Source: a phage
DNA length: 64,000 nucleotides
Sequence record: PZ386965.1
Reading direction: 5' to 3' (one strand)
The translations under genes and the position numbers were made by a program. Under the pieces are notes generated by a model that did no database searches, had not been told where the DNA came from, and saw nothing but the letters and a program-made list of their open reading frames with translations. Within the stretch, counting starts at the first letter, position 1; each line of letters opens with the position of its first letter. Below, piece after piece: positions 15,314 to 37,825 of this stretch.

Positions 15314-15342
15314 ATTATACTCTAACCATCCTTGGTTGTAAA
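15314..15342 (-). promoter_or_regulatory. sigma70-type early promoter (CCAAGGATGG-spacer family)
   Basis: Minus strand TTTACA-N17-TATAAT; spacer contains CCAAGGATGG shared with 16334-16362. Confidence 0.5.
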
Positions 15343-15347
15343 CTGAT

Positions 15348-16307
15348 TTATGATTTTAATGCATTCATTGCGTTAAAAAGTTTAGAGTATTGCAACTGGA
15401 GATTGGTCACCACCTGTTGAGCATCACGAAGCTTAGCTTGTGCCTTATCAAGTTCAGCAGACAGTTGGTCTACAGTAGCCTTGATTTGATTGTAATAATA
15501 ATCTTCAGCCGGAAGAAGGTCATTAGAAACATTTAGTTTTACTGCCGACAGTTTGCACACATTTGGCAAACCTTTAAACATACCAGATTGTGCTGGAGAA
15601 TATGCACCTAGAACCTCTGCATTACCGACTGGTGTTGCTGTAATATTGCCTTCAAACAATGCATTTTCCTTTTTAAGATTTTGATAGTATTCAGAGTCTT
15701 TGTGCCACCATGGTGCAGGAACCTTTTTACCAATAGATACACGAGCTTGGATAGCGATATGGCCCTTATTCTTGATAAGGTCGACAATATTAAGCTCACG
15801 AGAATAAATTGCTTTAATCTGGTGGATATTATCACCTAAAACTTCCAACGCTTGGTGGAATACACGAGCAACGTTATCATTCTTAGGTTTATACGTAAGA
15901 GTGAACTCATTCTCACTGATAACCATGATTTCCAACTTATCGTAAGTATATTTCAAATGTTTCATGTTAATTGCTTGAGGACGAATACGAGAAGCAATGG
16001 CCATCAGATTGTTAAGGTTATTCCGGAACTGCTTAGCGAAATATTGTCCTTCACCGCCAATACAAAAATTACGAAGTTTCTGTTTGGCCAGTAAACGACT
16101 GAACTCGCCATTTTTAATGAACTCTTTAACGGGTGTGTTAGTAACGCATTCAAATTGAGTAAACTTACGAGAATTAATCCCATAATACGAACAGATTTCT
16201 TCAATCTCTTCAGGAGTCTTTACAGGCATACGGATAGGATTAGGTCCTGGGGTATATGCGTTCGAGGTAAATTCTTTGATAAGTTCTCTACGTGTAATAA
16301 AAGCCAT
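15348..16307 (-). CDS. hypothetical protein with C-terminal coiled coil
   Basis: 319 aa; ATG with GAGGA SD. Confidence 0.5.
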   Translation of the reverse strand: MAFITRRELIKEFTSNAYTPGPNPIRMPVKTPEEIEEICSYYGINSRKFTQFECVTNTPVKEFIKNGEFSRLLAKQKLRNFCIGGEGQYFAKQFRNNLNNLMAIASRIRPQAINMKHLKYTYDKLEIMVISENEFTLTYKPKNDNVARVFHQALEVLGDNIHQIKAIYSRELNIVDLIKNKGHIAIQARVSIGKKVPAPWWHKDSEYYQNLKKENALFEGNITATPVGNAEVLGAYSPAQSGMFKGLPNVCKLSAVKLNVSNDLLPAEDYYYNQIKATVDQLSAELDKAQAKLRDAQQVVTNLQLQYSKLFNAMNALKS

Positions 16308-16333
16308 TTTATATTCCTCATGTTGAAAAATTT

Positions 16334-16362
16334 ATTATACTCCAACCATCCTTGGTTGTACA
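16334..16362 (-). promoter_or_regulatory. sigma70-type early promoter (CCAAGGATGG-spacer family)
   Basis: Minus strand TGTACA-N17-TATAAT; near-identical to 15314-15342. Confidence 0.5.
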
Positions 16363-17358
16363 TCATTCCTTAAGAAGTTTTACTACTTGAATAAGATTAG
16401 CTCGTTCTGTTTTATTTTTACCATTTAAGCCTGCTAATCGTGAGATTTCATCGTCAGTCTGTTGAATAGTTACATTAAGTTCGTTAATCAAAGCTTCAAA
16501 GTATTTGATTTGCTCAGCATGTTTTGATTCAAATTTCTGAACCGGAATAACGTCTTGGTTTAGTTCGTCAATAAGGTCTTTAAGAGCATCTTCTTGGTTG
16601 ATATCGTATTCAACTTCTTTTATTTCTTCAACTAGCTCGTCTTTATATCTAACGTCTTTTAGTCCTGGTGCTGGTCCTGAAATCTCTTCTTTAAGAGTAC
16701 AAACATACCCAATACGGTATCCAGTGCCGTCTCGCTTGATATCAACTTCGTCGATAAATCCACAATGTTTGAGACCAGAGCCGATTAGGTCAAAATATCC
16801 TTGACGACGTCCTTCAAACGTTACACGAACTACTAAGACAGTTTTGCCTGCAATCTTTTGAAGCTCACATTTATAAAAGTCAGTTGAACCTGAATAACGT
16901 GGATGAGTTTTAAAGTTCATCTGACGATCTAGGCCCATTTGTAAACGTGCTGTTACGGCCATAAAACGTGTTTGGTTCTCGTTAAGATGAGCAACAATCC
17001 ATTTCAAAGGCATTTTACACTGTTCACGACCGAACAAATCAGTACGTCCTAGATTACGCAGGATGTTGTTAGAGTTAATCATCGACAGAACGTTAAGTTT
17101 ATTCAGCGCGCTGAAGATTCCATCAGCCATTGATTTTCCGTAGCCTTTACACGCTTTAATAAGCGCTCGCGGTAGATTAGTATAGATTTCAGACGGCATA
17201 TGAAAATCAAATTTACTAACCAGTAATTGATGAACTTGGATAGCAATTCGTTCATAATTAAGCGCTCTGCGATCATTATGGTCTTTAAACCACACTTTAA
17301 TCTGTGAAGCACATAAACCGTTAATTTCATGTTTTATCGCATCAGATGTAATGCTCAT
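16363..17358 (-). CDS. hypothetical protein with C-terminal coiled coil
   Basis: 331 aa; ATG with GAGGA SD. Confidence 0.5.
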   Translation of the reverse strand: MSITSDAIKHEINGLCASQIKVWFKDHNDRRALNYERIAIQVHQLLVSKFDFHMPSEIYTNLPRALIKACKGYGKSMADGIFSALNKLNVLSMINSNNILRNLGRTDLFGREQCKMPLKWIVAHLNENQTRFMAVTARLQMGLDRQMNFKTHPRYSGSTDFYKCELQKIAGKTVLVVRVTFEGRRQGYFDLIGSGLKHCGFIDEVDIKRDGTGYRIGYVCTLKEEISGPAPGLKDVRYKDELVEEIKEVEYDINQEDALKDLIDELNQDVIPVQKFESKHAEQIKYFEALINELNVTIQQTDDEISRLAGLNGKNKTERANLIQVVKLLKE

Positions 17359-17420
17359 AACTATTTCCTCAGATTGAATTGGAACTCAAAACCATTATAA
17401 CCCGTCCTTGGGTAAAGCGT

Positions 17421-17948
17421 TTATGCGTGAACCGTCTTTAAACGTTCTTCAAATTTCCGAAGAGTACTAATACGTTCTGCTTTCTGTTTTGTATAGTTTG
17501 CAATACGTTCTGAAGTGAGAGCGTATCGTTCGTTTACTGTTTCTTTCATGAAGTCAGGGATTTCACGAGAAGCTTTAATTTCATCAAACTTGTCGAGTAC
17601 TGCCTGGTCTTCAGCGATTAAATTTTCATACATCTCGATATCTTTCTTGATAAACTCGATATCTTCCTGAGTTACTTTGGATAAACGAGATGCTTTATCC
17701 TTTTTGTACTGCTCGTTAGTTTCACGAGACCAGAATAATGTACGTTTTTTGTTAGTGTTTTTGTAGACTTCCACAATTCCAACTGAATCGATGATAACAA
17801 TCCAATTCCAGCGAGATTTGAAAATCTGACCTCCATCCACAGTAATCTCGTTACCATAAGCAACGTCATTAAAGAACTTGCTCTGTGCTTCAGATTTAAA
17901 TTTACCGTCGTTATAATTTACCAGGTTGAAAATATCTTTAGCGTTCAT
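17421..17948 (-). CDS. hypothetical protein
   Basis: 175 aa; ATG with GGAGG SD. Confidence 0.45.
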   Translation of the reverse strand: MNAKDIFNLVNYNDGKFKSEAQSKFFNDVAYGNEITVDGGQIFKSRWNWIVIIDSVGIVEVYKNTNKKRTLFWSRETNEQYKKDKASRLSKVTQEDIEFIKKDIEMYENLIAEDQAVLDKFDEIKASREIPDFMKETVNERYALTSERIANYTKQKAERISTLRKFEERLKTVHA

Positions 17949-17975
17949 GTTTTACCTCCAGTAGTTGATAGGTCT

Positions 17976-18003
17976 ATAATAACATAACCATAGACCTTGT
18001 AAA
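17976..18003 (-). promoter_or_regulatory. sigma70-type early promoter with stem-loop
   Basis: Minus strand TTTACA-N16-TATTAT with TG extension; AGGTCTAT/ATAGACCT inverted repeat. Confidence 0.45.
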
Positions 18004-18006
18004 CAA

Positions 18007-18294
18007 CTAAAAGAAACTTTTTTCGGTATTTTTTCCACTGAACCAAACAGACTTCGGGATTTTTTGTAATTTTTCAGATTTAAGTTTCTCTTCCTGTTCT
18101 TTCTTATATACACTCTTGTCGTACTGGAGCATCTCTATGGCATTCTTTTGCAAATGATCTAAGGTAATTAAGGCTTTAGTTTTTCCTTTCAAGGAAGAGT
18201 CCTGGCGAACCTCCTCGCTATATTGCATTGTAGAACTAACCATACGATGTGCATAGAGTTCGACTGCGGCTTTAATTTTTTGCATAAAATCCAT
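18007..18294 (-). CDS. hypothetical protein
   Basis: 95-aa ORF. Confidence 0.35.
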   Translation of the reverse strand: MDFMQKIKAAVELYAHRMVSSTMQYSEEVRQDSSLKGKTKALITLDHLQKNAIEMLQYDKSVYKKEQEEKLKSEKLQKIPKSVWFSGKNTEKSFF

Positions 18295-18432
18295 AACATA
18301 TCCTCTTTGATTTGTACATCATTATTTTTAAATATTTCTATGCCCTCAGTAGGTTCCTGGTGTCCTTCTTTGAGGTAAGCCATATGATTATTCATCTTTA
18401 TGGCTTTTGTTACCTCAGAACTTCCTATAAGC

Positions 18433-19413
18433 TTATTTCAGTAAAGTAACTTCCGAGATTTCTTCCCAACCATCTTTATCAGTTGAAATAAAATCTGCTA
18501 CATAAAGAGCCGTACGTAATGATACATTGCGAAGACGAGATACGTTAGCCTTCATCCAGGACAATGCTTTATACGTTTCTGCATCCGTCAGACCACGTTT
18601 CTGCATCATGTCAGTAGATAATATTACATCTTCAACTCGAACCATAATCTCTTCATTAGAGTGTACTCCAAGGTCGAGATACACTGAACGAGATACTAAA
18701 GCTTGAAGGTGTGGAGCAAGTTTCGAACCCCGTTCTAACTCTTTATCGATATCAACGTTTGTAATGAAAACGATAGTACCTTCAAACTCAAATTCTTTAT
18801 CAATACCCTTATCCTCGAGATAAGATGACGCAGTGCTCCAACAAACTTTGCGTTTATCTCCGGTATCTAATGCGGCTTTAAGAAGGTTCAGGATGTCCAT
18901 ATCTGAGAATACGTCAACGTCATCGATTAAGAGAACGCTGTCTGCATCACGGTTGAGCCAAAGTTGTTCGTAAAGGCCAATACCAGAGATTTTACCATTA
19001 ATGCTTTTGTATTTGATGAAACCATTATCATTAGCATTACTAAGTGCTTTATCCAGAGAATACGTCTTACCAATACCAGCTGCACCTGAAATAATGAGTG
19101 AACGAATTTTGCCATCGATAATGCCATTCGTCATCATGTTCATTACTTTAAAGCGTTTGTTGATACGAGTTTTCATATCTTCAGTGCTTTCAACAACTGC
19201 AACTGGTGATGTCTCAACTCCTTCCATTACGATGTCTGATTTGAAGACCCATACTCCACGTTCAGAACCATCAATCATAACGAAAATTTTACCGTCACCT
19301 AAGTGAGAACATTCAGGATTAAGCTTTGCCGGGAACCAGGTCTTTGTGGCAACATAAGAACCAGAGATTTCGTTATTACGATAGATACCTTTTTTGATTT
19401 GAACGTTGAACAT
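18433..19413 (-). CDS. AAA+/P-loop ATPase
   Basis: Walker A GAAGIGKT, Walker B VLLIDDVD, sensor-like FITN; start trimmed to ATG with GGAGA SD. Confidence 0.55.
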   Translation of the reverse strand: MFNVQIKKGIYRNNEISGSYVATKTWFPAKLNPECSHLGDGKIFVMIDGSERGVWVFKSDIVMEGVETSPVAVVESTEDMKTRINKRFKVMNMMTNGIIDGKIRSLIISGAAGIGKTYSLDKALSNANDNGFIKYKSINGKISGIGLYEQLWLNRDADSVLLIDDVDVFSDMDILNLLKAALDTGDKRKVCWSTASSYLEDKGIDKEFEFEGTIVFITNVDIDKELERGSKLAPHLQALVSRSVYLDLGVHSNEEIMVRVEDVILSTDMMQKRGLTDAETYKALSWMKANVSRLRNVSLRTALYVADFISTDKDGWEEISEVTLLK

Positions 19414-19451
19414 TTTATTCTCCAATTTACTCATTTCGTTTCGATAGGTCT

Positions 19452-19479
19452 ATAGTATCATATCCTAAAAGCATGTACA
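19452..19479 (-). promoter_or_regulatory. sigma70-type early promoter
   Basis: Minus strand TGTACA-N16-TACTAT with TG extension; GATAGGTCTATAGTA core. Confidence 0.45.
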
Positions 19480-19531
19480 CTACTTTTTAAAAATATTTTA
19501 ACCCCCTAAAGGGACCCGAAGGTCCCCACAT

Positions 19532-19798
19532 TTACTTATCACACTTAGCAACATAATTAGGCATATCACAGAATACGGAGCGTGTAACTACTCGACCCTT
19601 TGACCATGCTTCAGTTGCTTGTCCGGCCGTGCTATTAATATAGCTTGATTTGATATTCTCAATACCCTGAGAATGTGATGCATTTACCGAACCGTTAGAA
19701 GGCGCAGAAGACTGGTTACCACCAGCTCCTGTACCTGTGGTAGCACCAACAGAGAATGCCATCATTACTGCGAATAAACCAATTACTAATTTTTTCAT
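19532..19798 (-). CDS. small secreted protein (signal peptide)
   Basis: 88 aa; MKKLVIGLFAVMMAFSVGA signal-like N-terminus; Ser/Gly/Asn-rich. Confidence 0.5.
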   Translation of the reverse strand: MKKLVIGLFAVMMAFSVGATTGTGAGGNQSSAPSNGSVNASHSQGIENIKSSYINSTAGQATEAWSKGRVVTRSVFCDMPNYVAKCDK

Positions 19799-19829
19799 AT
19801 TTACCTCAAGTTAATGGTTATTTATCTAC

Positions 19830-20819
19830 TTATTTATAGTAAGAATTATGATTTTCGAGATAGACTTGCTCAAGGAAATCATCCCAGAAACTCATATCTA
19901 CTTTTTGTTGCATACCATTCTTGGCAGCTTGTTCTGACGCATGTTCAACTTGGTCAACGATATCTTCTAGGAATTCTTGTACAGTTTTAAACGTATGTTT
20001 ACCAAGCTTAACATCGAGAATAAATGGAGCATCTTGAAGTGGGTAAACCAGGTCGCCGGTTTTGTAAATTTCCAATAATTGAAGTCCACCACGACATGCA
20101 TGACTCAATGCTTTCCAGTCAATACCTTCGTTAGCTTCTGCCTTACGAGCACGTTCACCATAGTTCTCTTCTAGTTTAACCAGGATGGCATTGAACTCTT
20201 TATTGGTTAACGTGTCTTGGAATTTACGGTCTAACAGATTATAGAATGTTTGCTTACCTGTTTTCTCGTTTTCGGTTTCAACCCACGAAGCAAATTCACC
20301 TACAGGCAGAACATTCTTCATATGTGATAAACGAATTACTGCACCATTATCAAAGTATTGTCCCCATTCATTAGAACGTTTAAGGGCTTGACGAAGAACA
20401 GCCAGTCGAGAACCCTTGACACCGTATTTAGAAGCTTGCTTACGGACATACCCTAAATAAGATTTCATGTTAGTGGTATAGAAACGAGACCTGTTATCTT
20501 GAATATACTTCCATACATCAGGCAAATCAGATTTAACTACTAGACTTGGTGGAGTGTGAAGCATATCTAATGCGACGGTTTCACCATCCGCAGCTAGTTT
20601 AAAGAAATATTTGAGACTATACAACTCATGGTCTACGTCGTCTTTTGTGTTCTTAGAAGATGTGTTATTCGTGTTCTTGCTCATGTGTTCTTTAACGTTA
20701 CCGGTCAAGATATCACGAGCATGAGGGACATAAATTTCTTTAAAATCGACGTCAGATTCAGGAGTAGACGTTCCATAAAGGTGGCTACCAAAGTAGCTTT
20801 TCATAATTGTTTTCATCAT
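19830..20819 (-). CDS. nucleotidyltransferase-fold protein (Pol-beta superfamily signature)
   Basis: 329 aa; FGSHLYGTSTPESDVDF matches [GS]-x10-D-x-D minimal NTase motif; start uncertain among several ATGs. Confidence 0.5.
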   Translation of the reverse strand: MMKTIMKSYFGSHLYGTSTPESDVDFKEIYVPHARDILTGNVKEHMSKNTNNTSSKNTKDDVDHELYSLKYFFKLAADGETVALDMLHTPPSLVVKSDLPDVWKYIQDNRSRFYTTNMKSYLGYVRKQASKYGVKGSRLAVLRQALKRSNEWGQYFDNGAVIRLSHMKNVLPVGEFASWVETENEKTGKQTFYNLLDRKFQDTLTNKEFNAILVKLEENYGERARKAEANEGIDWKALSHACRGGLQLLEIYKTGDLVYPLQDAPFILDVKLGKHTFKTVQEFLEDIVDQVEHASEQAAKNGMQQKVDMSFWDDFLEQVYLENHNSYYK

Positions 20820-21289
20820 TTAGCCTTATATTCAAGAGTAGGACAGACTTTTTCTTTACGAGCTTTAAGGTATTCACCTATTAATGATTTCTTACGTTCA
20901 ATAGGTTCAAGTCCATTTTTAATTCGTTCTTGGTTTTGCGCAATGAGCTCAATTTCTTTATAATATTTTCTGTCGTTATATTTGTCTAATAACCAAGATG
21001 GACCAATTACCGCCCCGACAGCAATAAGAACCATTACTGATATTGTTAAAATGCCTATACCAATTGAAGCAGGAACTAATGTCCATAAACTACTAAAGAC
21101 AAAGAATTTAGTTAAAATTTCTTGGCCAATGATTGCGGCACCTGCTAAAGTTGCAAATCCAACAATTGAAACAGCCAATACCGGAATAAACGTTTTCCAA
21201 AAATAAGCACATAATGTTTTCGGACGATTCCATGTACTATTGAACGTGGCATAAATTTTAAAGTGCCAAGAGTTTTCATTGATAATCAT
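20816..21289 (-). CDS. membrane protein (two TM segments)
   Basis: 157 aa; two long hydrophobic helices; start overlaps NTase stop. Confidence 0.45.
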   Translation of the reverse strand: MIINENSWHFKIYATFNSTWNRPKTLCAYFWKTFIPVLAVSIVGFATLAGAAIIGQEILTKFFVFSSLWTLVPASIGIGILTISVMVLIAVGAVIGPSWLLDKYNDRKYYKEIELIAQNQERIKNGLEPIERKKSLIGEYLKARKEKVCPTLEYKAK

Positions 21290-21298
21290 AATAATTCC

Positions 21299-21829: not shown

Positions 21830-21830
21830 A

Positions 21831-22010: not shown

Positions 22011-22145
22011 TTTACCATACTCGTTTCAATAAGATTCACTATGCCGTTTACCATGTTATAAGTAAACATCGGATAATTGTATTGTACTACAACATAAGCG
22101 ATAAGCAAAAGTTTCATTTTGTTCTCCGTTCGTTTTGATAGGACT

Positions 22146-22174
22146 ACTATAACATAGTCCTATCAAGTTGTAAA
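22146..22174 (-). promoter_or_regulatory. early promoter within 28-bp palindromic promoter-stem-loop element
   Basis: Minus strand TTTACA-N17-TATAGT; perfect 10-bp inverted repeat GATAGGACTA/TAGTCCTATC (22137-22164) spans the -10. Confidence 0.5.
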
Positions 22175-22384: not shown

Positions 22385-22391
22385 AATATCC

Positions 22392-22571: not shown

Positions 22572-22598
22572 AACGTTCTCCTCTAGTAAGTAAGGTCT

Positions 22599-24877: not shown

Positions 24878-25217
24878 TTGCTACAAGTCCTCTAGTATAA
24901 GAGTCAACTAGACGGTCCACCATAGAATTGCATGCTGCCTTATCTTTAGGTTCCGCCACCGAGCATTCTAATATTTGCCATTTTTTATAGTATCTTTTAA
25001 TTAAAGTAGACGCCTTGAACCTACTAGACGCCCCATCTTTTTCTCCGTCTTTATATGCATATAACAATTTTTGTGAAAAATCTACTTTACACTCTTGACT
25101 TTTACCACAATAATCAGACGCCGTTCTGTTTGTATACTCCGTTACATCAGTATATGTAGTATTAGCAAGAGCGTTAAATGAAACCAAGCCAACTATTAAA
25201 GCCAACATTTTGGTCAT
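24870..25217 (-). CDS. secreted protein (signal peptide)
   Basis: 115 aa; MTKMLALIVGLVSFNALA signal peptide; several Cys. Confidence 0.5.
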   Translation of the reverse strand: MTKMLALIVGLVSFNALANTTYTDVTEYTNRTASDYCGKSQECKVDFSQKLLYAYKDGEKDGASSRFKASTLIKRYYKKWQILECSVAEPKDKAACNSMVDRLVDSYTRGLVASD

Positions 25218-25756
25218 TCTTTTATTTCCAGTAGTTTATTTGATTTAAGGTAATTAGCCTTTTCTAGGACTTCAGAAGCATATTTACTTCCAGCACTTGT
25301 CTTCCATCCCGCATTATATGAGGATATAGCTTTTCTTATATCCCCGTTATGTATATTTAACCAATAAGAAAATTCGATATAAGCCCATCTGGTTGAATTA
25401 GACCGCTTAGATAGCATTTTCTTAATTTGGGCATCAGACATATTATAACCAAGCTGGTTAATTCTTGCCCTCATTGTTGGTAGATAATTTTGGAACATTC
25501 CATACGCATGGTGACCTTTCTTATCTTTAAGATTAATACCGGCAGATGATTCCTGCCATAGTATTGCGGCCATTATGTATCCAAGTCCTTTCTTATGCAT
25601 ATTTTCATGCGTTTTAAATTTTCCATCCTTAGAAAACTGTTCCCCAAACTGATAAGCATAATTCAAGTTATCGAGTTGGACATTACTAAAAGTATGCTCG
25701 GAGCTATGTGCTGATAATGAAAGAGCAAATAGACCAGCGAGTAGTGCTTTTCTCAT
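25214..25756 (-). CDS. secreted lytic transglycosylase-like protein (SLT domain)
   Basis: 180 aa; signal peptide; AILWQESS catalytic Glu-Ser and SSYNAGW motifs typical of SLT family. Confidence 0.65.
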   Translation of the reverse strand: MRKALLAGLFALSLSAHSSEHTFSNVQLDNLNYAYQFGEQFSKDGKFKTHENMHKKGLGYIMAAILWQESSAGINLKDKKGHHAYGMFQNYLPTMRARINQLGYNMSDAQIKKMLSKRSNSTRWAYIEFSYWLNIHNGDIRKAISSYNAGWKTSAGSKYASEVLEKANYLKSNKLLEIKE

Positions 25757-25764
25757 GTTTACCT

Positions 25765-26223
25765 CTAGATTTTAATCACTGCTTTAGAAGCTTTTCCTGG
25801 TAGTCGTTTATTGTTAATAATAGCCATTCTGCATTGAAGAGTCTTCATTTTGAATGCTGGATTTTCGCGACAAACTGTAAGTCCTAACCAAAGATTTCCA
25901 TCAGTTATTTCTAAACGGCCTGGGCGATATTCGACACCTTCGACAAAATCTTCATCAACATCTGGACGTGCCGGCATTGATAAAAATTCTGCAACTTCTT
26001 TAACATGATTTTTTACTTTACGAAATAATTCAAAAACGTAATTCTCATCTATTTCTCTCTGGATGGCACGATCTAAGAGATGTTGAGAATACTTGATATG
26101 AAAGCCCGGTAGTCCAAGAGACTTTGCAGCATCTTTTATACTGGCATTTATTTTGCGGAACTCCGTTTCAAAGATTCGACGGAGTTTATTGCGGCGGATA
26201 AAAACGTCTGAATTGATAGTCAT
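25765..26223 (-). CDS. regB: endoribonuclease RegB
   Basis: 152 aa; MTINSDVFIRRNKLRR...YSQHLLDRAIQREIDE matches recalled T4 RegB; GGAGA SD. Confidence 0.9.
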   Translation of the reverse strand: MTINSDVFIRRNKLRRIFETEFRKINASIKDAAKSLGLPGFHIKYSQHLLDRAIQREIDENYVFELFRKVKNHVKEVAEFLSMPARPDVDEDFVEGVEYRPGRLEITDGNLWLGLTVCRENPAFKMKTLQCRMAIINNKRLPGKASKAVIKI

Positions 26224-30664: not shown

Positions 30665-30666
30665 AA

Positions 30667-30690: not shown

Positions 30691-30698
30691 TTTATTAC

Positions 30699-31871: not shown

Positions 31872-32557
31872 TACCAGCCTTCCATAGGGAATTCTAGATA
31901 AACTTGAGCGTTGACACGAATTTCATTGGTAATCTTTTTAACTCGGTCTGTATTACGAGATACACGTCCGAACCAACGCCATCCATTACTAATTGCACGA
32001 GAACCAGTGTGCCATGTTTGCCAATCAAACTGAAGAAGAGTACGGTCTGGAGCTTCCCATTTCTCTAGTTCACCTTTTTCAATTTTTTCGAGGACTTCTT
32101 TGTGCCACTGGCGATAGATAAGTTCGCCATCAGGAATCTGACTGAACTCTGCAGTTCCTGTTGCAAAATGAGTAGGACACACGTCAGCGTTAACAAGACC
32201 AAGAATATGTTCAGAATGGTAACGAGGGTTATCATAGTCAGGTTGTCCTGCAGTAATAAAGTGTTGGCCGACTGGAATATCAGGGCGAGGAACATCGTCA
32301 TGGTGGTATCCAGGAATAGCAGGATACCAACCAGGCATAAGCATATGAACACGTGAATCGAATACTACTTCATTAGTGTTCCAGTCATCAGGCAGATTCA
32401 TGATGAAAGAACGAGTGATAGGACCGCCGTTATCAAAAGCAAACTTCAGGTTGCAGTTGAAGAACATAGGCTCATTTTTAATTTTATCATTACTGATACG
32501 GCCAGCGAAACCACCTACTGCACGAGCTTGACTATTAAACACTTTAGAACTATTCAT
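31871..32557 (-). CDS. hypothetical protein
   Basis: 228 aa; His/Asp-rich central region (HHDDVP, HSEH). Confidence 0.5.
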   Translation of the reverse strand: MNSSKVFNSQARAVGGFAGRISNDKIKNEPMFFNCNLKFAFDNGGPITRSFIMNLPDDWNTNEVVFDSRVHMLMPGWYPAIPGYHHDDVPRPDIPVGQHFITAGQPDYDNPRYHSEHILGLVNADVCPTHFATGTAEFSQIPDGELIYRQWHKEVLEKIEKGELEKWEAPDRTLLQFDWQTWHTGSRAISNGWRWFGRVSRNTDRVKKITNEIRVNAQVYLEFPMEGW

Positions 32558-32558
32558 A

Positions 32559-32864
32559 TTATTTTCCTCGACATTCTTTAATGAAATTTTCTAGATTGGT
32601 AGATTCAATAGCTTTTTTACGAGCTTCAGCGTGTTCTTCTTCAGTTAATCTACGTTTAAACTTGACCCAAACATTATGGTCGAAACCTGTTGTCGCGTAT
32701 AATAACAGAGCACCAACGAATAACAAAAACGGTGATAAAAATACACAACCAGGAACACCATCCATATCGTAAGCCTTTTGTAATACTGCAACAGAAAGAG
32801 CTGCGTAAAAAGGTGATGCAAATATTGTTAAAAGACCAATTCGGTTGGTTTCGCCTAATTTCAT
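32559..32864 (-). CDS. membrane protein with C-terminal ENFIKECR motif
   Basis: 101 aa; two TM segments; ends ...LENFIKECRGK; ATG with GAGGAG SD. Confidence 0.45.
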   Translation of the reverse strand: MKLGETNRIGLLTIFASPFYAALSVAVLQKAYDMDGVPGCVFLSPFLLFVGALLLYATTGFDHNVWVKFKRRLTEEEHAEARKKAIESTNLENFIKECRGK

Positions 32865-32892
32865 AATATTCTCCTCATGTTTTAATAGGACT

Positions 32893-32921
32893 ACTATAAC
32901 ATAGTCCTATCTTGTTGTAAA
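32893..32921 (-). promoter_or_regulatory. early promoter within 28-bp palindromic promoter-stem-loop element
   Basis: Same element as 22137-22164 (ATAGGACTACTATAACATAGTCCTATC); TTTACA-N17-TATAGT. Confidence 0.5.
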
Positions 32922-32934
32922 CAGTTTTGTGAAG

Positions 32935-33891
32935 TTATTTGAAAGGTTTTACCATATGAAAATTTTGTTTGAAACGCTTGACGTAATCGTCGTGTCCTAA
33001 GCTTTGATACATACTTACTACTTTGCCATAGTTCTCCCAGGCATACTCACGGAACCAGCCTGATGTGATTGAAGTACAGACCTTTTCTAATGCCATCATA
33101 AAACTATCACGAGGATGGATTTCAAAGCCATTAGGAATCTGAGAACGTTCTAATGCTAGTACACATGATTCTTCGTATACGCCGGCCAATTTGACCATTT
33201 CCGGTAATGATTCGAACTTCTCGCGTGAGGTCATGACTTCAGAACCATCTTTCATATAAAATGTATACGCTGGACGGTCTGTTAGTGCAATGGCTTCGTG
33301 AATAGTATCATGGTCATACGTATAGATGTCATCTTTAAAGAATGCGCTTTTAGAAGTGTCAAGAACCGGGTGAGCATAGTTCAAGGTTTCTTTCTGGCGT
33401 TTCAGCATAATTTCAGTAAGTTCATCGTCCAGTGTAACACCTTTACCACGAAGATACTGAATATGGTTCATAGTCTTTAAAAAGAATGGATTATTTTTCT
33501 TGAAACGATGAGACATCTTAATTGCAAGACACATCTCAGGAGTTGCCCAGTAAAACCCGTTCAAACGGTCTTTAGTCAAATTTTTCTTGGCGTATTTTAA
33601 AAGGTCATAAGAAGACGTGAAATCTTCAGGAGTGAGTTCACCGACTAATTCACGGACATTAGTGATTGCCGGAACAATGTATGCTTCAAAATGAGTTTCG
33701 CGTCCGTTATGGAAGCATTTGAAAACTTGGACATCAGGGTTATCTTGGTGAACATATACACCCATCATTTGATTTTTGAATACATTCCAAGAACCTTGGT
33801 CCGCAATAAAGTCCCAATCACTATTTTTGATAGCGCTAGAATCAATAAGGCCGTGATAGTGAAGTGCACGAGAACCAATAACCAACATCAT
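32935..33891 (-). CDS. hypothetical protein
   Basis: 318-aa ORF. Confidence 0.5.
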   Translation of the reverse strand: MMLVIGSRALHYHGLIDSSAIKNSDWDFIADQGSWNVFKNQMMGVYVHQDNPDVQVFKCFHNGRETHFEAYIVPAITNVRELVGELTPEDFTSSYDLLKYAKKNLTKDRLNGFYWATPEMCLAIKMSHRFKKNNPFFLKTMNHIQYLRGKGVTLDDELTEIMLKRQKETLNYAHPVLDTSKSAFFKDDIYTYDHDTIHEAIALTDRPAYTFYMKDGSEVMTSREKFESLPEMVKLAGVYEESCVLALERSQIPNGFEIHPRDSFMMALEKVCTSITSGWFREYAWENYGKVVSMYQSLGHDDYVKRFKQNFHMVKPFK

Positions 33892-33916
33892 AATAATTTC
33901 CTCGAATTTAGATTAC

Positions 33917-34168
33917 TTAAATTTCGCGACATGCGATATTATATTCATCCCAGAGGTCGTCATGTGAAGCCTCTACCAATGGAACGATTGTGCCGTTTAT
34001 GTCTTCATTATAAGGGCAAATTGTACAGTGCGCATCTTCGAATCGGATGCCTTTGTGTTCAGATTTTTTATAACGCATATCGAATATCTTTGCAAACTTT
34101 TCACGAGTAATAGTTTTAGCAACTACTTCGGTTCCGATACTTTCGTAATAAATCATTGTAGACTCCAT
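33917..34168 (-). CDS. hypothetical protein
   Basis: 83-aa ORF; CTIC...C pair. Confidence 0.4.
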   Translation of the reverse strand: MESTMIYYESIGTEVVAKTITREKFAKIFDMRYKKSEHKGIRFEDAHCTICPYNEDINGTIVPLVEASHDDLWDEYNIACREI

Positions 34169-34184
34169 TTAATTTGATAGGACT

Positions 34185-34213
34185 ACTATAACATAGCCCT
34201 ATCTTGTTGTAAA
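34185..34213 (-). promoter_or_regulatory. early promoter within 28-bp palindromic promoter-stem-loop element (1 mismatch)
   Basis: GATAGGACTACTATAACATAGCCCTATC; TTTACA-N17-TATAGT. Confidence 0.5.
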
Positions 34214-34218
34214 CTGTT

Positions 34219-34416
34219 TTAGCAAGAATAACTAGATGATACCCAGCCTTGAACAGTAATACTATTATTTGATAACGAGATTGCGTCCTGGAGATTAAGA
34301 CCTGCGTTATCTTCAATCCACAATGTAACTTCTTCACGCTCTTCGGTTGCAATCTGGAACAGGTTTTCTAGGGCAGCTACTGCTGTACGTACAGCACAAT
34401 CTAATTCACGAGACAT
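34219..34416 (-). CDS. small protein, C-terminal GWVSSSYSC (paralog family member 3)
   Basis: 65 aa; shares terminal G-x-W-V-S-S-S-x-x-C with the two genes upstream. Confidence 0.45.
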   Translation of the reverse strand: MSRELDCAVRTAVAALENLFQIATEEREEVTLWIEDNAGLNLQDAISLSNNSITVQGWVSSSYSC

Positions 34417-34425
34417 ATGATTTCC

Positions 34426-34698
34426 TTAACAAGTGTGAGAAGATGCAACCCAACCGCCATCTTCAAGGCTCAAGTTGTAGTCGTATTGGTAAACATCGGC
34501 CCATTCAGCATAACCGTTTTTTGTACAACGTTCAAGATCGGCTTTAAGATGTCCTGGCGAATGATAGGTTCCACCCATGCCATAAGCTGGATACAAGTCG
34601 AATGTTGTGTTTTGTTTATCAGCAATTTCTTTGGCAGCCTCAATAGCTGCATAGATTTTTGCTACGGCTTCAGCCAGTTCGGTTTGTTCTTTAGACAT
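34426..34698 (-). CDS. small protein, C-terminal GGWVASSHTC (paralog family member 2)
   Basis: 90 aa; MSK start; YPAYGMGGTY core; terminal Cys. Confidence 0.45.
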   Translation of the reverse strand: MSKEQTELAEAVAKIYAAIEAAKEIADKQNTTFDLYPAYGMGGTYHSPGHLKADLERCTKNGYAEWADVYQYDYNLSLEDGGWVASSHTC

Positions 34699-34707
34699 AA
34701 TGATTCC

Positions 34708-35013
34708 TTAGCACAACGCAGAAGACGAAACCCAAGCACCTTCAGTAATAACGTAACCATTACCTTCACGCTTAACGTCGCCACCATTATTTTCAATTTC
34801 ATTTTTCATCCACTGGGATACGATTTCACCCTTAGGATAATAAGTACGACCGCTACCATAATCACCTACAGAAAACGATACAGCGTATTGGTCTGCGATC
34901 TTTGTTGCTTCTTCTTCGATACGTTCAGCTTGATTCAGAAGTTTATAAATTGCATCTGAAGCGGATTTGGCATCATTAAACTCTGGTACTTTAATTTCAA
35001 TAATCTTACTCAT
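34708..35013 (-). CDS. small protein, C-terminal GAWVSSSALC (paralog family member 1)
   Basis: 101 aa; MSK start; DYGSGRTYYPKGE core; terminal Cys. Confidence 0.45.
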   Translation of the reverse strand: MSKIIEIKVPEFNDAKSASDAIYKLLNQAERIEEEATKIADQYAVSFSVGDYGSGRTYYPKGEIVSQWMKNEIENNGGDVKREGNGYVITEGAWVSSSALC

Positions 35014-35369
35014 TTTCTACATTCCTTAATAAAGTTTTCGATTGTTTCATTTTCACGTCTAGCTAGGAGTTCATTATAACTAATCATTTGAGAAGCGTAA
35101 ACCTTTTTATTTTTCTTGTTATGGTTTATAAAATCGTAGTAAAAATAGACTACAGTACAAAAGGATGCTATTGATGCAAAGGCTTGGGTATACCGTAAGT
35201 CCTGCCATTGGTCTGTGAATCCACCGGTGTTACCTATAAATCCTAACACAACGCCATCAATAAGAAATCCAACTAATCCAAAGGCAAATCCCATGCCAAT
35301 ACTCATAATAAAAATTAGAATGTTCTCGCCAAGAGAAGGCCATACGGTTAAGAGTTGAGGCTTTTGCAT
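35010..35369 (-). CDS. membrane protein with C-terminal ENFIKECR motif
   Basis: 119 aa; multiple TM segments; ends ...ETIENFIKECRK; stop overlaps next ATG. Confidence 0.45.
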   Translation of the reverse strand: MQKPQLLTVWPSLGENILIFIMSIGMGFAFGLVGFLIDGVVLGFIGNTGGFTDQWQDLRYTQAFASIASFCTVVYFYYDFINHNKKNKKVYASQMISYNELLARRENETIENFIKECRK

Positions 35370-35773
35370 CTTATTTCCTTAACGAATTCCATAGCTTCTT
35401 CATATTCATACTTTTTAACAGCTTCAACATACTGAGCTTGGGCTTTTGCGCACTGAACTTTCCACTCGCGAACTCGAGCTCTGTGATGACGGCCTTGGTG
35501 CCAATATCCTGCCCAATTAATAGGCATTAATAAAAACGGTACAATAAGTGGTGCGACGAACATTAATGAAAACGCTGCATCAGACGATATAACTTTATTG
35601 GAATCTAAAATAGCTCCTATAATCATAAAGATTAAAAATGCTAAAGCTAAAATAGGGCCAAATAGTACTTCGTTTGGGATTAATTTACGTTTGTATTCGT
35701 ATGCCCAGGGCTTAATTGGCATGTACAGGGTTGGCTTTGACATATTCTCTACATTCCATAATAAATTGCTCAA
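35348..35773 (-). CDS. membrane protein with C-terminal EFVKEIRCK motif
   Basis: 141 aa; two TM segments; His/Arg-rich cytoplasmic loop. Confidence 0.45.
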   Translation of the reverse strand: MSNLLWNVENMSKPTLYMPIKPWAYEYKRKLIPNEVLFGPILALAFLIFMIIGAILDSNKVISSDAAFSLMFVAPLIVPFLLMPINWAGYWHQGRHHRARVREWKVQCAKAQAQYVEAVKKYEYEEAMEFVKEIRCKSLNS

Positions 35774-36308
35774 GGATTAAATTGTTAGTGAAATTAGGAC
35801 TAACAACCATAGTTTCATAAAGCGCATCAATAGCACTTAAAGCATCAACTCTTTTAAGCAAAGGCTTGCCTTCATACATAGTTTCAGAATCGATGATTAA
35901 CGTAAAGTAATATTTTTTATTATCGACTAGAACTTCTGTATCGATATAAAACATATTAGACCTCAGAAGCTTATCTCTAAAACCATAATAATCTTCTGAA
36001 CGTTCGCTGATATATTCCCATTCAGTGTTTAAACAACAAACAGACCATGTAGGAGCAACGAAATCAGTGAATCTAATATCATGGTCTGCAACTAGTTTAG
36101 CAATAGCTCCGATATCATGAATCATAATACCTGGGGCTAATAAAGATTTTCGGCGATTTGCGTATTCAGTTGTCTCATAAGAAGCTGACCAGTACCATTT
36201 ACGTCCAGTTGCAACATATCGTAATGAATCAACTAAAGACGTAGGTGGATTTACCTTATCTCGGAACTCTTCGAACATTGAGTCAATATCATTATTTTGG
36301 TTTCGCAT
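35712..36308 (-). CDS. hypothetical protein with EQFIMECR motif
   Basis: Trimmed to ATG (MRNQNNDIDS) with AGGAG SD; soluble; motif 8 aa from C-terminus. Confidence 0.45.
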   Translation of the reverse strand: MRNQNNDIDSMFEEFRDKVNPPTSLVDSLRYVATGRKWYWSASYETTEYANRRKSLLAPGIMIHDIGAIAKLVADHDIRFTDFVAPTWSVCCLNTEWEYISERSEDYYGFRDKLLRSNMFYIDTEVLVDNKKYYFTLIIDSETMYEGKPLLKRVDALSAIDALYETMVVSPNFTNNLILEQFIMECREYVKANPVHAN

Positions 36309-36326
36309 GTTAACTCCTTTATTATC

Positions 36327-36349
36327 CAAAAGGAGGACCGGAGTCCTCC
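36327..36349 (-). terminator. intrinsic terminator candidate
   Basis: 7-bp stem GGAGGAC/GTCCTCC with 4-nt loop followed by T4 on minus strand, just after stop of 36358..36951. Confidence 0.45.
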
Positions 36350-36357
36350 GTATTATT

Positions 36358-36951
36358 TTATTTCAAAGAGTTAATATATTCTTGTACATCAGCAGAAGTG
36401 GTTTCGACACCGGCTGGAGTACCATTGAACGTTTCAACACGAGTCAGAGTGTCTTCGATATCAACCTTGGTCAGTGCAGCAATTTCGATCACATCATCGG
36501 CCGTAGAGATACCAAGGGCATTGGCTGCTCGAGTTTCGCGGATGTATTCAAGTTTGATTGCCAGATTCTGACGAGCATCGTCAAGTTCAACCACCTTACG
36601 AGCAATTTCAATTCGCATAGCGGCATAACCGTCAGCTTTTGTATTAAGTTGTTCGGCAGTTCGACGATACAGAAGACCAAGCTTAGCATGCATGGTAACA
36701 TCTTGTCCTTCAGCCAGGAGCTTACGAATTTCACGTTCCTTAGAAGCGGCTTGCTTGTTCTTTTCATTAACAAGTTCGCGAATACGTTTTTCTTCATTAA
36801 TAGATTTAACAGAAGCCGTTTTTAGTTCTTTGATTTGGGTAATCAACTTATCTGCGGCTGCGTTATACTGTTCTTCGACAGTCAGATTTTTAGCCATAGC
36901 AGTACCCAGTTTAGTGCGGATGAATTCAACAAGTTTCTTCAGTGTGTTCAT
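36358..36951 (-). CDS. coiled-coil protein
   Basis: Trimmed to ATG ([10 protein letters not shown]); 197 aa, heptad-rich Ala/Glu/Lys/Arg composition. Confidence 0.45.
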
Positions 36952-36991
36952 ATTATTACCTTTCAATTGGTGGTTTATTATCCATGAGAGC

Positions 36992-37020
36992 ATTATACTC
37001 TGCTCTCAAGAGTTTGTACA
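36992..37020 (-). promoter_or_regulatory. sigma70-type early promoter with hairpin around -10
   Basis: Minus strand TGTACA-N17-TATAAT; GAGAGC/GCTCTC inverted repeat; near-copy of 6502-6530. Confidence 0.45.
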
Positions 37021-37021
37021 C

Positions 37022-37270
37022 TTATTTGTACGAATTAATAATCTCTTCCATTTTATCCAGAACATGGATATCGATTATACGAGGAAGTGCCGAAAGATTA
37101 GAACCGTCGAAAGATTTAAGGTCTTCCAAAATAATATTTTCAATGGCCTTTAAAGCTTCCGCAGATTCTGATGCAGAATTAAATTCAGGAATTTCTCCAA
37201 AAAGACGTAAGAATGAACCAAAGTATTCTGCGGCGATTTCTTTAGCTTGTTCGATATCAGACTTAAACAT
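37022..37270 (-). CDS. hypothetical acidic protein
   Basis: Trimmed to ATG (MFKSDIEQAK) with GAGGA SD; ORF-track start overlaps promoter. Confidence 0.4.
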   Translation of the reverse strand: MFKSDIEQAKEIAAEYFGSFLRLFGEIPEFNSASESAEALKAIENIILEDLKSFDGSNLSALPRIIDIHVLDKMEEIINSYK

Positions 37271-37298
37271 TTTGTTTTCCTCATTTGTTGGTGGAGTA

Positions 37299-37327
37299 AT
37301 CATATCACCATCCTTGGCGTTTGTACA
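37299..37327 (-). promoter_or_regulatory. sigma70-type early promoter (CCAAGGATGG-spacer family)
   Basis: Minus strand TGTACA-N17-TATGAT; spacer contains CGCCAAGGATGG. Confidence 0.4.
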
Positions 37328-37555
37328 TTATTTTTTAATCAAGTTGACATAAAATTCTGCATCTTCAGGGTGCATGCCTTCGCAGTATTCTTCAACCATG
37401 AACTTCTTAACAGCTTCATAAGGACCGCTCAGATTAAGTTCAGTTGTCCAGAACTTGGAATCTTGAACCGAATCGATACGAACTTCAGGGTGTCGGTTGC
37501 GAATAACTTCTTCGGTGTATTCATAATCAACTACATCAATACTAACTTTAGCCAT
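37328..37555 (-). CDS. hypothetical acidic protein
   Basis: 75-aa ORF with ATG. Confidence 0.4.
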   Translation of the reverse strand: MAKVSIDVVDYEYTEEVIRNRHPEVRIDSVQDSKFWTTELNLSGPYEAVKKFMVEEYCEGMHPEDAEFYVNLIKK

Positions 37556-37601
37556 TTTGTTTTCCTCTTGATTTGATGTGATTACTATAACATAAACTTA
37601 C

Positions 37602-37766
37602 TTAGATGTAAATTATTTCAACGTCACCTTTAGCTGCTTTATAACCTTCAGCCCAAGATACAACAGAGTTTTTATCTGAGGATTCAAATTCAGGCATTGG
37701 ACTTTCACCAATATTCACACAGTATGTTTCTTCATTTTCATCGAACCAAATAATTAAAGTAGTCAT
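37602..37766 (-). CDS. small hypothetical protein
   Basis: Trimmed to ATG (MTTLIIWFDENEE) with GAGGAG SD; ORF-track extension overlaps promoter. Confidence 0.4.
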   Translation of the reverse strand: MTTLIIWFDENEETYCVNIGESPMPEFESSDKNSVVSWAEGYKAAKGDVEIIYI

Positions 37767-37796
37767 TTTGTTTACTCCTCTGTAGTTGATAAGTCT

Positions 37797-37825
37797 ATAG
37801 TAACACCGTCCTTGGTGTTTGTACA
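37797..37825 (-). promoter_or_regulatory. sigma70-type early promoter (CCAAGGACGG-spacer family)
   Basis: Minus strand TGTACA-N17-TACTAT; spacer contains CACCAAGGACGG. Confidence 0.45.

What the first reader, a model, noticed from the sequence alone, without database searches (positions are those of the whole stretch)
15314..37825. Second early-promoter family with a conserved CCAAGGA(T/C)GG spacer
Promoters at 15314-15342, 16334-16362, 37299-37327 and 37797-37825 share the spacer core CCAAGGA(T/C)GG between a TGTACA/TTTACA -35 and the -10. A fifth copy at 17394-17422 keeps the CCAAGGACGG core but has lost 6 nt of spacer, so it may be inactive. Spacer sequence is not normally constrained in sigma70 promoters, so its conservation suggests a binding site for a phage or host factor, or recent duplication.
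Basis: seen in the sequence. Interest (0 to 1): 0.4.

Follow-up and report, generated by a model that had tools for sequence, protein, structure and literature searches.

The report
Early promoters with embedded conserved hairpin
Five intergenic promoters of this RB69-like T4-type phage carry a small conserved hairpin between their -35 and -10 boxes, a known kind of promoter/stem-loop cassette (PeSL) at which related phages have gained or lost whole genes by recombination.

Summary
CCAAGGAYGG occurs exactly 5 times, all on the minus strand and all intergenic, against 0.11 expected by chance. The window is a Mosigvirus (RB69-like T4-type phage).

The conserved "spacer" is a short hairpin with a 4-7 bp stem and an A-AGGA-N loop. 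Across 17 distinct variants from Mosig-, Tequatro- (including T4 and T2), Dhaka- and Jiaodavirus the stem covaries (AU/UA/GC/CG/GU at one position; covariation 0.48 vs 0.13 shuffled, 0/500), while the loop stays constant.

The anatomy matches published PeSL cassettes (Arbiol 2010; Comeau 2014): a sigma70-like early promoter with a stem-loop between -35 and -10.

Four independent gene gains or losses in relatives have junctions inside or next to these elements:
- FL31 lacks the gene between S1 and S2.
- moha has an extra ORF at S2.
- The g37022 cassette is absent from most relatives.
- g37602 is absent from two relatives.

The "defective" fifth copy has MotA-box geometry (GCTTTA-N13-TATAAT), so it is more likely a middle promoter than a dead early one.

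A factor site fixed in the promoter is disfavoured, because the core shifts 3 nt relative to -10 and the covariation implies intrastrand pairing. The hairpin's own function is inferred, not shown. Verdict: new member of a known kind, moderate interest.

The parts
15314..15342 (-). S1: early promoter TTTACA-N17-TATAAT upstream of the nrdC.3-like gene (14344-15285). The embedded hairpin AACCA-AGGA-TGGTT lies at 15324-15337.
   Evidence: RB69 ortholog is Pe:51019. Orthologs carry ATCCA/TGGAT in Dhakavirus and AGCCA/TGGCT in T4/T2.
16334..16362 (-). S2: early promoter TGTACA-N17-TATAAT upstream of the DUF7235 gene (15348-16307). The hairpin CAACCA-AGGA-TGGTTG lies at 16343-16358.
   Evidence: MFE structure is this hairpin. 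RB69 ortholog is Pe:52042.
17394..17422 (-). S5: MotA-box-like aaaCGCTTTA (17413-17422), hairpin ACCC-AAGGAC-GGGT (17400-17413) and -10 TATAAT (17394-17399), upstream of the nrdC.6-like gene (16363-17358). No sigma70 -35 at 16-18 nt. Candidate middle promoter ('PmSL'-like).
   Evidence: The SA79RD record annotates the ortholog as a T4-type middle promoter. It is not in the RB69 Pe/Pm lists.
37299..37327 (-). S3: early promoter TGTACA-N17-TATGAT with TGn, upstream of the accessory gene g37022. The hairpin CGCCA-AGGA-TGGTG (one G.U pair) lies at 37306-37319. Its 3' arm TGGTG can alternatively pair with CACCA in the leader.
   Evidence: The site is absent, together with g37022, from most Mosigviruses.
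37797..37825 (-). S4: early promoter TGTACA-N17-TACTAT with TGn, upstream of g37602 (RB69ORF145c-like). The hairpin ACACC-AAGGAC-GGTGT lies at 37803-37818.
   Evidence: RB69 ortholog is Pe:72567. Tequatrovirus SH7 ortholog is ACACCA-AGGA-TGGTGT.
15348..16307 (-). Gene cassette (319 aa, DUF7235, nrdC.5-like) bracketed by S2 and S1. It is missing from phage FL31 (JM17 shows the same ~70% coverage in two pieces but was not inspected).
   Evidence: the FL31 junction is the S2 upstream part fused to the S1 leader; Pfam.
37022..37270 (-). Accessory 82-aa gene carried between S3 and the next promoter (36992-37020). Only 8 Escherichia-phage records hold it at >=95% identity.
36992..37020 (-). Partner early promoter TGTACA-AAC...TATAAT with an inverted repeat spanning the -10 (GAGAGC...GCTCTC). 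It shares TGTACAAAC with S3, and that shared stretch is the junction of the g37022 cassette.
37602..37766 (-). 54-aa gene between S4 and the frd.3 promoter (37584-37612). It is missing from IMG/VR contig 2974739009 and from phage CAU_ECP01, where an S4-type promoter is fused to the frd.3 leader.

Best explanation
The five sites are PeSL-type composite regulatory cassettes of a T4-type phage. Each packs a promoter and a short stem-loop into a ~60-nt gap between a stop codon and the next ribosome-binding site. Four are sigma70 early promoters; S5 is probably MotA-dependent.

The conserved 'spacer' is the stem-loop: a 4-7 bp stem with an A-AGGA-N loop. It lies upstream of the cassette's own transcription start. 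It is therefore absent from RNA started at that promoter and present only in RNA reading through from the promoter upstream. The spacer is the one part of a promoter free to encode such a structure.

Shown here:
- Promoter geometry.
- The stem is under selection for pairing across four genera.
- The near-identical cassettes have served as crossover points at which whole genes were gained or lost in natural relatives.

Inferred:
- The selected structure is an RNA hairpin acting on read-through transcripts (attenuation, processing or 3'-end protection).
- Sequence identity between copies in one genome is maintained by recombination or gene conversion on top of that selection.
For: **Promoter anatomy and location.**. 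Orthologs of S1, S2 and S4 are published predicted early promoters in RB69.

**Pairing is selected.** On 17 distinct variants, 81.5% of cells pair against 61.4% when shuffled (0/500). The covariation score is 0.482 against 0.127 (0/500), and slid controls give 0.01-0.16. Pairs 5-18, 6-17 and 7-16 are never unpaired, and one position shows AU, CG, GU, GC and UA.

**Compensatory changes at orthologous sites.**
- Upstream of nrdC.3: AACCA/TGGTT (Mosigvirus), ATCCA/TGGAT (Dhakavirus), AGCCA/TGGCT (T4, T2). The core is kept although the nrdC.3 protein is only ~55% identical.
- Downstream of alt: ACGCCA/TGGTGT (FB) against ATCACA/TGTGAT (KP179).
- T4 gene 60/rIIA.1: TTTACT-TTACCACAAGGATGTGG-TATAAT.

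**General property of this phage.** Embedded inverted repeats characterise its 24 early promoters (mean best stem 5.9 vs 4.3 shuffled, 0/200). They fall into the two positional classes that the PeSL paper calls commonest: between -35 and -10, or overlapping the -10 (PMC2839356).

**Recombination at the elements.**
- The FL31 junction is the S2 flank, -35 and spacer fused to the S1 leader, and the 1020-bp cassette is missing.
- moha has the reciprocal chimera plus an inserted 66-aa ORF.
- The g37022 cassette junction lies in the shared TGTACAAAC.
- g37602 is lost in two genomes, with the junction in the leader.

**Other.** The flanking genes are not paralogs. PmSL, the Mot-box version, is a described variant (PMC4122927).
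Against: - The hairpins are thermodynamically weak (-5 to -10 kcal/mol for 51-nt contexts; z-scores -1.75 to +0.65).
- None is followed by a U-run and none is called terminator-like. SA79RD's terminator predictions do not include them. So the 'effective terminator' property shown for RB49 PeSLs is unsupported here.
- The 17 variants are not phylogenetically independent. Most were found by similarity to the core, so loop conservation is partly an ascertainment effect. Gene-based retrieval gave the same picture.
- No transcript mapping exists for these sites. Nothing here shows that the hairpin acts in RNA rather than in single-stranded DNA. Wobble pairs do not decide the strand: the G.U in S3 favours the sense strand, while the A.C in S4/S5 would be G.U on the antisense strand.
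- S5 is not in the published RB69 middle-promoter list.
Confidence: 0.72

Rival explanations
1. One reading: the conserved spacer is a duplex-DNA binding site for a phage or host protein that modulates these particular promoters, for example shut-off of a subset of early promoters.
For: - The centre CAAGGA is nearly invariant across 17 variants.
- The mechanism that shuts off T4 early promoters is still unknown (PMC2988021).
- The element always sits inside a promoter.
Against: - The core shifts by 3 nt relative to -10 and -35 between S1/S2 and S3/S4, and it sits in a 13-nt MotA-type spacer in S5. A factor could therefore not hold a fixed geometry to RNA polymerase.
- The arms change by compensatory double substitutions. 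A protein reading duplex DNA would not select for that.
- The centre is asymmetric, so it is not a dimer operator.
Confidence: 0.1
2. Neutral homology only: the copies are recent duplicates or gene-conversion tracts with no function beyond being promoters, and the inverted repeat is incidental.
For: - S1 and S2 are 27/29 identical.
- Chimeric S1/S2 elements in FL31 and moha show that sequence is exchanged between copies.
- Hairpin stability is not above shuffled controls.
Against: - The element is conserved at orthologous loci across Mosig-, Tequatro-, Dhaka- and Jiaodavirus, where the adjacent protein is down to ~55% identical.
- Stem positions vary only in compensatory fashion (0/500 shuffles).
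- In L024 the stem and the -10 have decayed together.
- The flanking genes are unrelated.
Confidence: 0.08
3. The hairpin is a specific RNA processing signal. It displays an unpaired GGA in its loop to the phage endoribonuclease RegB (with or without ribosomal protein S1) or another RNase. Read-through transcripts are then cut between cistrons, while transcripts started at the cassette's own promoter, which lack the hairpin, escape.
For: - regB is encoded in the window (25765-26223, Pfam REGB_T4, E=1.9e-69).
- RegB cuts GG*AG/U in early intergenic regions.
[quoted passage not shown] That matches CCA[AGGA]UGG.
- The loop is more conserved than the stem.
Against: - The fourth base is U, C or A at orthologous sites, whereas RegB sites are GGAG or GGAU.
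- The A-rich 3' context of strong sites (GGAGRAYARAA) is absent.
- Secondary structure is generally reported to protect against RegB.
- No cleavage data exist for these sites.
Confidence: 0.12
4. The hairpin is a transcription terminator or attenuator for upstream transcription, the function demonstrated for RB49/phi1 PeSL stem-loops.
For: - The location immediately after a stop codon and the PeSL precedent (PMC2839356).
- Every site has an upstream promoter with no other predicted terminator in between.
Against: - Stems are 4-7 bp with weak energies and no U-tract. None passes a lenient terminator scan.
- WebGeSTer/TransTermHP annotations in SA79RD skip all of these sites.
Confidence: 0.12

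Closest known systems
PeSL (promoter-early stem-loop) cassettes of T4-type phages (Arbiol et al. 2010, PMC2839356; Comeau et al. 2014, PMC4122927)
   Same: [quoted passage not shown]
- A strong sigma70-like early promoter (TTTACW-N17-TAYWAT in the T-even group).
- A stem-loop placed between -35 and -10 or overlapping the -10.
- Clustering in hyperplastic regions.
- Gene indels whose junctions lie in the cassettes.
   Different: - The stem is short and not G/C-tract based: RB49 has Gn-loop-Cn, and PST/T4 was described as AGNA-loop-TCNT.
- Here AGGA is the loop, and it is conserved across genera while the stem covaries.
- No terminator-like features.
- In the parts of those two papers that I read, PeSLs were not described for the RB69/Mosigvirus group.
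PmSL (promoter-middle stem-loop; Comeau et al. 2014) / T4 MotA-dependent middle promoters
   Same: S5 has a MotA-box-like aaaCGCTTTA, 13 nt, then TATAAT, with the stem-loop in between. RB69 encodes MotA (PMC1524935).
   Different: - C replaces T before GCTT.
- It is not in the published RB69 Pm list.
- PmSLs were described in vibriophage nt-1, not in T-even coliphages.
RegB endoribonuclease target sites (GGAG/U in early intergenic regions)
   Same: An intergenic early-region location, an unpaired GGA, and regB present in the genome.
   Different: The fourth base is not constrained to G/U. There is no A-rich downstream context. The site is in a hairpin far (~45 nt) from the SD.
Rho-independent terminators
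   Same: A hairpin directly downstream of a stop codon.
   Different: No U-tract and a weak stem. It fails the terminator scan.

Membership tests
PeSL cassette | Sigma70-like early promoter (-35/-10, ~17-nt spacer) in the correct orientation upstream of an ORF | tested here: met
   S1-S4 are TTTACA/TGTACA-N17-TATAAT/TATGAT/TACTAT. RB69 orthologs are in the published Pe list. S5 fails this feature (11-nt spacing to TTTACC).
PeSL cassette | Stem-loop inside the cassette, typically between -35 and -10 or overlapping the -10 | tested here: met
   The hairpin lies wholly within the spacer. Pairing is supported by covariation on 17 variants. Embedded inverted repeats are enriched in all 24 early promoters.
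PeSL cassette | Occupies the whole intergenic gap: stop codon / AT-rich region - promoter - SD - ATG | tested here: met
   The flanks show stop codons 0-8 nt before the -35 and SD+ATG 30-40 nt after the -10. The region upstream of S1, S3 and S4 is A/T-rich; upstream of S2 it is less so.
PeSL cassette | Located in hyperplastic regions and associated with indels; recombination junctions in the cassette | tested here: met
   nrdC.x and e.6-frd.3 regions. Junctions: FL31 deletion, moha insertion, g37022 cassette, g37602 loss.
PeSL cassette | Stem-loop acts as an effective transcription terminator/attenuator | tested here: inconclusive
   Only sequence proxies were available: weak energies, no U-tract and no terminator call. 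Function needs an experiment.
PeSL cassette | Formation of mini-circles by recombination between neighbouring cassettes | not testable with these tools
   Needs inverse PCR on infected cells. The FL31 and moha chimeras are consistent with excision and integration products.
T4-type middle (MotA/AsiA) promoter, for S5 | MotA box (a/t)(a/t)(a/t)TGCTT(t/c)A centred at -30, 11-13 nt before TAnnnT | tested here: inconclusive
   aaaCGCTTTA-N13-TATAAT is a 9/10 match with spacing in range. It is annotated as a middle promoter in SA79RD but absent from the RB69 Pm list. MotA dependence is untestable here.
RegB cleavage site | GGAG (rarely GGAU), unpaired, with an A-rich 3' context GGAGRAYARAA | tested here: not met
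   The loop is GGAU/GGAC/GGAA and is followed by GG, not an A-rich tract. Only 'unpaired GGA with the 4th base constrained' fits.
Intrinsic terminator | G+C-rich stem of >=5 bp followed by a U-run | tested here: not met
   No terminator-like call at any of the five sites on either strand.
Rfam RNA families | Match at gathering threshold | tested here: not met
   Only two tRNAs in the whole window.

The most novel reading that the evidence does not exclude
The A-AGGA-N hairpin is a dedicated, sequence-specific RNA signal shared by T-even phages, including T4 at rIIA.1 and nrdC.3. It is hidden in promoter spacers so that it marks only read-through transcripts. A phage or host RNA-binding protein or RNase (RegB/S1 is the obvious candidate) recognises the loop. 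The phage could then treat RNA that has read through from an upstream gene differently from RNA started at the local promoter. That would be a layer of early-gene control not described for T4.
Probability: 0.15. Interest if true: 0.65.

Novelty: new member of a known kind. Interest (0 to 1): 0.35.

Why it matters
It shows that the 'unconstrained' spacer of these promoters is constrained because it doubles as a structured element. It also extends PeSL cassettes to the RB69/Mosigvirus group, with unusually clean natural examples of reciprocal gene gain and loss at the cassettes. For phage engineering and annotation, these 29-nt elements mark the natural break points of accessory-gene modules.

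The loop-conserved, stem-covarying hairpin is present in T4 itself. A specific RNA-level role could therefore be tested directly in the best-developed phage genetic system.

Tried and rejected
- **Paralogy of flanking genes** as the source of the repeat: BLASTP found none.
- **Thermodynamic significance:** z-scores were not significant, so I relied on covariation instead.
- **IMG/VR retrieval by four proteins** gave only 2-6 loci each. I switched to the GenBank phage collection.
- **Rfam:** nothing but tRNAs.
- **Literature search for the motif string:** only unrelated primer hits. A search for T4 TSS/RNA-seq maps found none for T4 or RB69.
- **Miller et al. 2003 T4 genome review** (PMC150520) is not held.
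- **The T4 reference record AF158101** has no regulatory features at the nrdC.4/nrdC.3 gap.
- **Mini-ORF reading** of AAGG-ATG-GTT-AGA-GTA-TAA was rejected, because S4 and S5 have ACG in place of ATG.
- **Restriction-site reading** (CCWWGG = StyI) was considered and dropped, having no support beyond the match.
- **Antisense-strand terminator reading:** the + strand hairpins are not followed by an adequate T-run.
- **Homologs of g37022 in Klebsiella phages** do not carry this hairpin. KPV15 has a G4/C4 stem spanning the -10 instead. So the hairpin promoter did not simply travel with that gene from those phages.

Full report
**1. What the window is**

The region matches Mosigvirus genomes (RB69-like T4-type phages) at 95-97% identity. 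The five sites lie on the minus strand in two early, accessory-gene-rich regions. S1, S2 and S5 are in the nrdC.2-nrdC.8 block. S3 and S4 are in the e.6-frd.3 block.

**2.

Read on the minus strand, the sites are:

| Site | Sequence |
|---|---|
| S1 | TTTACA-A-CCAAGGATGG-TTAGAG-TATAAT |
| S2 | TGTACA-A-CCAAGGATGG-TTGGAG-TATAAT |
| S3 | TGTACA-AACG-CCAAGGATGG-TGA-TATGAT |
| S4 | TGTACA-AACA-CCAAGGACGG-TGT-TACTAT |
| S5 | aaaCGCTTTAC-CCAAGGACGG-GT-TATAAT |

- The exact core occurs five times against 0.11 expected. All copies are on the transcribed strand of the flanking genes.
- A covariance model built later finds exactly these five sites in the window (25.7-28.5 bits; the next hit scores 16.1).
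- An independent consensus scan calls S1, S2 and S3 promoter-like and calls no terminator at any site.
- The RB69 orthologs of S1, S2 and S4 are already in the published list of predicted early promoters (Pe:51019, Pe:52042, Pe:72567). The promoters themselves are therefore not new.

**3. What the conserved spacer really is**

The core is the centre of an inverted repeat whose outer arms differ between copies but stay complementary:

- AACCA/TGGTT (S1)
- CAACCA/TGGTTG (S2)
- CGCCA/TGGTG (S3)
- ACACC/GGTGT (S4)
- ACCC/GGGT (S5)

The core is not phase-locked to the promoter. It ends 6, 6, 3, 3 and 2 nt before the -10. The flanking genes are not detectable paralogs, and similarity stops at the edges of the ~29-nt element.

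Related phages supply further stems with the same loop:

| Locus | Phage (genus) | Hairpin |
|---|---|---|
| Upstream of nrdC.3/4 | IME08, JS98 (Dhakavirus) | ATCCA-AGGA-TGGAT |
| Upstream of nrdC.3 | T4, T2 and ~500 Tequatrovirus records | AGCCA-AGGA-TGGCT |
| S4 ortholog | SH7 (Tequatrovirus) | ACACCA-AGGA-TGGTGT |
| Downstream of alt | FB (Dhakavirus) | ACGCCA-AGGA-TGGTGT |
| Downstream of alt | KP179 (Jiaodavirus) | ATCACA-AGGA-TGTGAT |
| rnlA/alc gap | EP32B (Mosigvirus) | ACACCA-AGGA-TGGTGT |
| Gene 60/rIIA.1 gap | T4 | TTTACT-TTACCACAAGGATGTGG-TATAAT |

I aligned the 17 distinct variants and counted pairs on the stem.

- 81.5% of cells pair, against 61.4% in shuffles (0/500).
- The covariation score is 0.482 against 0.127 (0/500). 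Slid registers give 0.01-0.16.
- The four inner pairs are essentially never broken. The single break is in L024, a copy whose -10 has also decayed.
- One position shows AU, CG, GU, GC and UA.
- The nominal closing pair A.Y is not maintained: U, C or A occur even at orthologous sites. The loop is effectively A-AGGA-N.

Most variants were found by similarity to the core, which biases loop conservation. It does not bias toward compensatory arm changes. Gene-based retrieval gave the same result, including T4/T2, whose nrdC.3 protein is only ~55% identical to the window's.

**4. Context in this genome**

Among 24 early-promoter candidates, embedded inverted repeats are much longer than in shuffled controls. 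The mean best Watson-Crick stem is 5.9 against 4.3, and no shuffle of 200 reaches that.

Most repeats span the -10, for example GATAGGACT-N10-AGTCCTATC at four promoters and a 12-bp stem at 6802-6830. S1, S2 and S4 form the in-spacer class. [quoted passage not shown]

**5. The elements are recombination joints**

- **FL31** lacks the 960-nt gene between S2 and S1. Its single intergenic region is the S2 upstream flank, -35 and spacer fused after TATAAT to the S1 leader. JM17 shows the same ~70% coverage in two pieces but I did not inspect it.
- **moha** carries the reciprocal chimera at the S2 position. It has an S1-type upstream flank, including a duplicated fragment of the nrdC.5 3' end, joined to the S2 leader. 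A 66-aa membrane-protein ORF is inserted alongside.
- **The 82-aa gene g37022, together with S3,** is present in only 8 Escherichia-phage records. Where it is absent, the junction falls in the TGTACAAAC shared by S3 and the promoter at 36992-37020.
- **The 54-aa gene g37602** is missing from IMG/VR contig 2974739009 and from CAU_ECP01. In both, an S4-type promoter is fused to the frd.3 leader.

The crossover points are not at one fixed nucleotide. This favours general homologous recombination on short identity over a site-specific enzyme.

**6. The fifth copy**

S5 has no sigma70 -35 at 16-18 nt. It reads aaaCGCTTTA-N13-TATAAT, which fits the T4/RB69 middle-promoter consensus (a/t)3TGCTTtA-N11-13-TAtaAT at 9 of 10 box positions. 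The SA79RD record annotates it as a middle promoter, and Mot-box stem-loop cassettes (PmSL) are a described variant. It is not in Nolan's RB69 Pm list, so this stays a moderately supported reading. The element is conserved in every Mosigvirus examined, which argues against a decaying relic.

**7. Mechanism**

Shown:
- Promoter geometry.
- A stem under selection for pairing.
- Recombination at the cassettes.

Inferred:
- By geometry the whole hairpin lies upstream of its own promoter's start site. It can therefore exist only in RNA arriving from the upstream promoter.
- Each site has such an upstream promoter, with no predicted terminator in between.
- In these ~60-nt intergenic gaps the spacer is the only place where an intercistronic hairpin can be encoded without damaging the -35, -10 or SD.

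What the hairpin does in that RNA is not established.
- It does not look like an intrinsic terminator: energies are weak and there is no U-run.
- A RegB-type processing role is attractive. regB is in the window, and RegB cleaves unpaired GGA with a constrained fourth base. Against this, the fourth base is not conserved and the A-rich context is missing.
- A duplex-DNA factor site is disfavoured by the 3-nt phase shift and by the compensatory arm changes.

**8. Comparison and novelty**

The sites meet the structural and evolutionary criteria of PeSL cassettes. The terminator and mini-circle criteria could not be tested.

I found no description of PeSLs in the RB69 group, nor of an AGGA-loop hairpin family, in the papers read or by string search. 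I could not see the figures of those papers. Some T4/PST copies may already appear there.

I therefore rate this as a new member of a known kind. The open and possibly novel sub-question is why the loop is conserved across genera.

Noticed in passing
window 32893-32921, 34185-34213, 22146-22174, 40736-40764 (minus strand): Four early promoters share a 9-12 bp inverted repeat that brackets the -10 box (..GATAGGACTAtgttatagTAGTCCTATC..).
   Followed up: partly
window 6802-6830 and 17976-18003 (minus strand): Two more early promoters have long perfect inverted repeats spanning the -10: ACGATAGGAAGA...TCTTCCTATCGT (12 bp) and AGGTCTAT...ATAGACCT (8 bp).
   Followed up: partly
window 37299-37327 and leader to ~37290: In S3 the 3' arm TGGTG can pair either with the upstream CGCCA (spacer hairpin) or with CACCA in the leader (spanning the -10). 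This suggests two mutually exclusive structures in read-through RNA.
   Followed up: no
window 25765-26223 (minus strand): This is the regB endoribonuclease gene (Pfam REGB_T4, E=1.9e-69). Its own SD is GGAG, as in T4, where RegB autoregulates. The near-copy CTAAGGATGG at 25623-25632 lies inside the neighbouring 180-aa ORF (25214-25756), which has a weak sub-threshold match to the SLT domain.
   Followed up: partly
window 39613-39686 and 39693-39766 (minus strand): Two adjacent tRNA genes (Rfam tRNA, 71 and 54 bits). They correspond to the tRNA-Arg/tRNA-Met pair annotated in relatives.
   Followed up: no
window 36332-36349: The perfect palindromic hairpin GGAGGACCGGAGTCCTCC is flagged as terminator-like on both strands. 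It may be a bidirectional terminator near the start of the e.x block.
   Followed up: no
L035 (phage moha) 2189-2389: A 66-aa predicted membrane protein ORF (moha_89) is inserted at the S2 position, with a duplicated fragment of the nrdC.5 3' end next to it.
   Followed up: partly
L016 (Klebsiella phage phiA85) ~601-633; L020 (KPV15) ~445-480: Jiaodavirus promoters carry other embedded palindromes in the same frame. phiA85 has TGTACA-AGCTCGCGAGCT-GGTGA-TACTAT. KPV15 has GGGGAGTTATAATGAACTCCCC spanning the -10, which is RB49-like.
   Followed up: no
L024 (IMG/VR 2974742932) ~345-375: In this Tequatrovirus-like contig the nrdC.3 element has a broken stem (GCCAAGGATAGC) and a degraded -10 (TACAAA) together. 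It looks like a decaying copy.
   Followed up: no
window 15348-16307: The nrdC.5-like gene is a full-length DUF7235 protein (E=7.8e-118). Several GenBank records label the whole nrdC.x block 'thioredoxin', which looks like annotation carry-over from nrdC.
   Followed up: no
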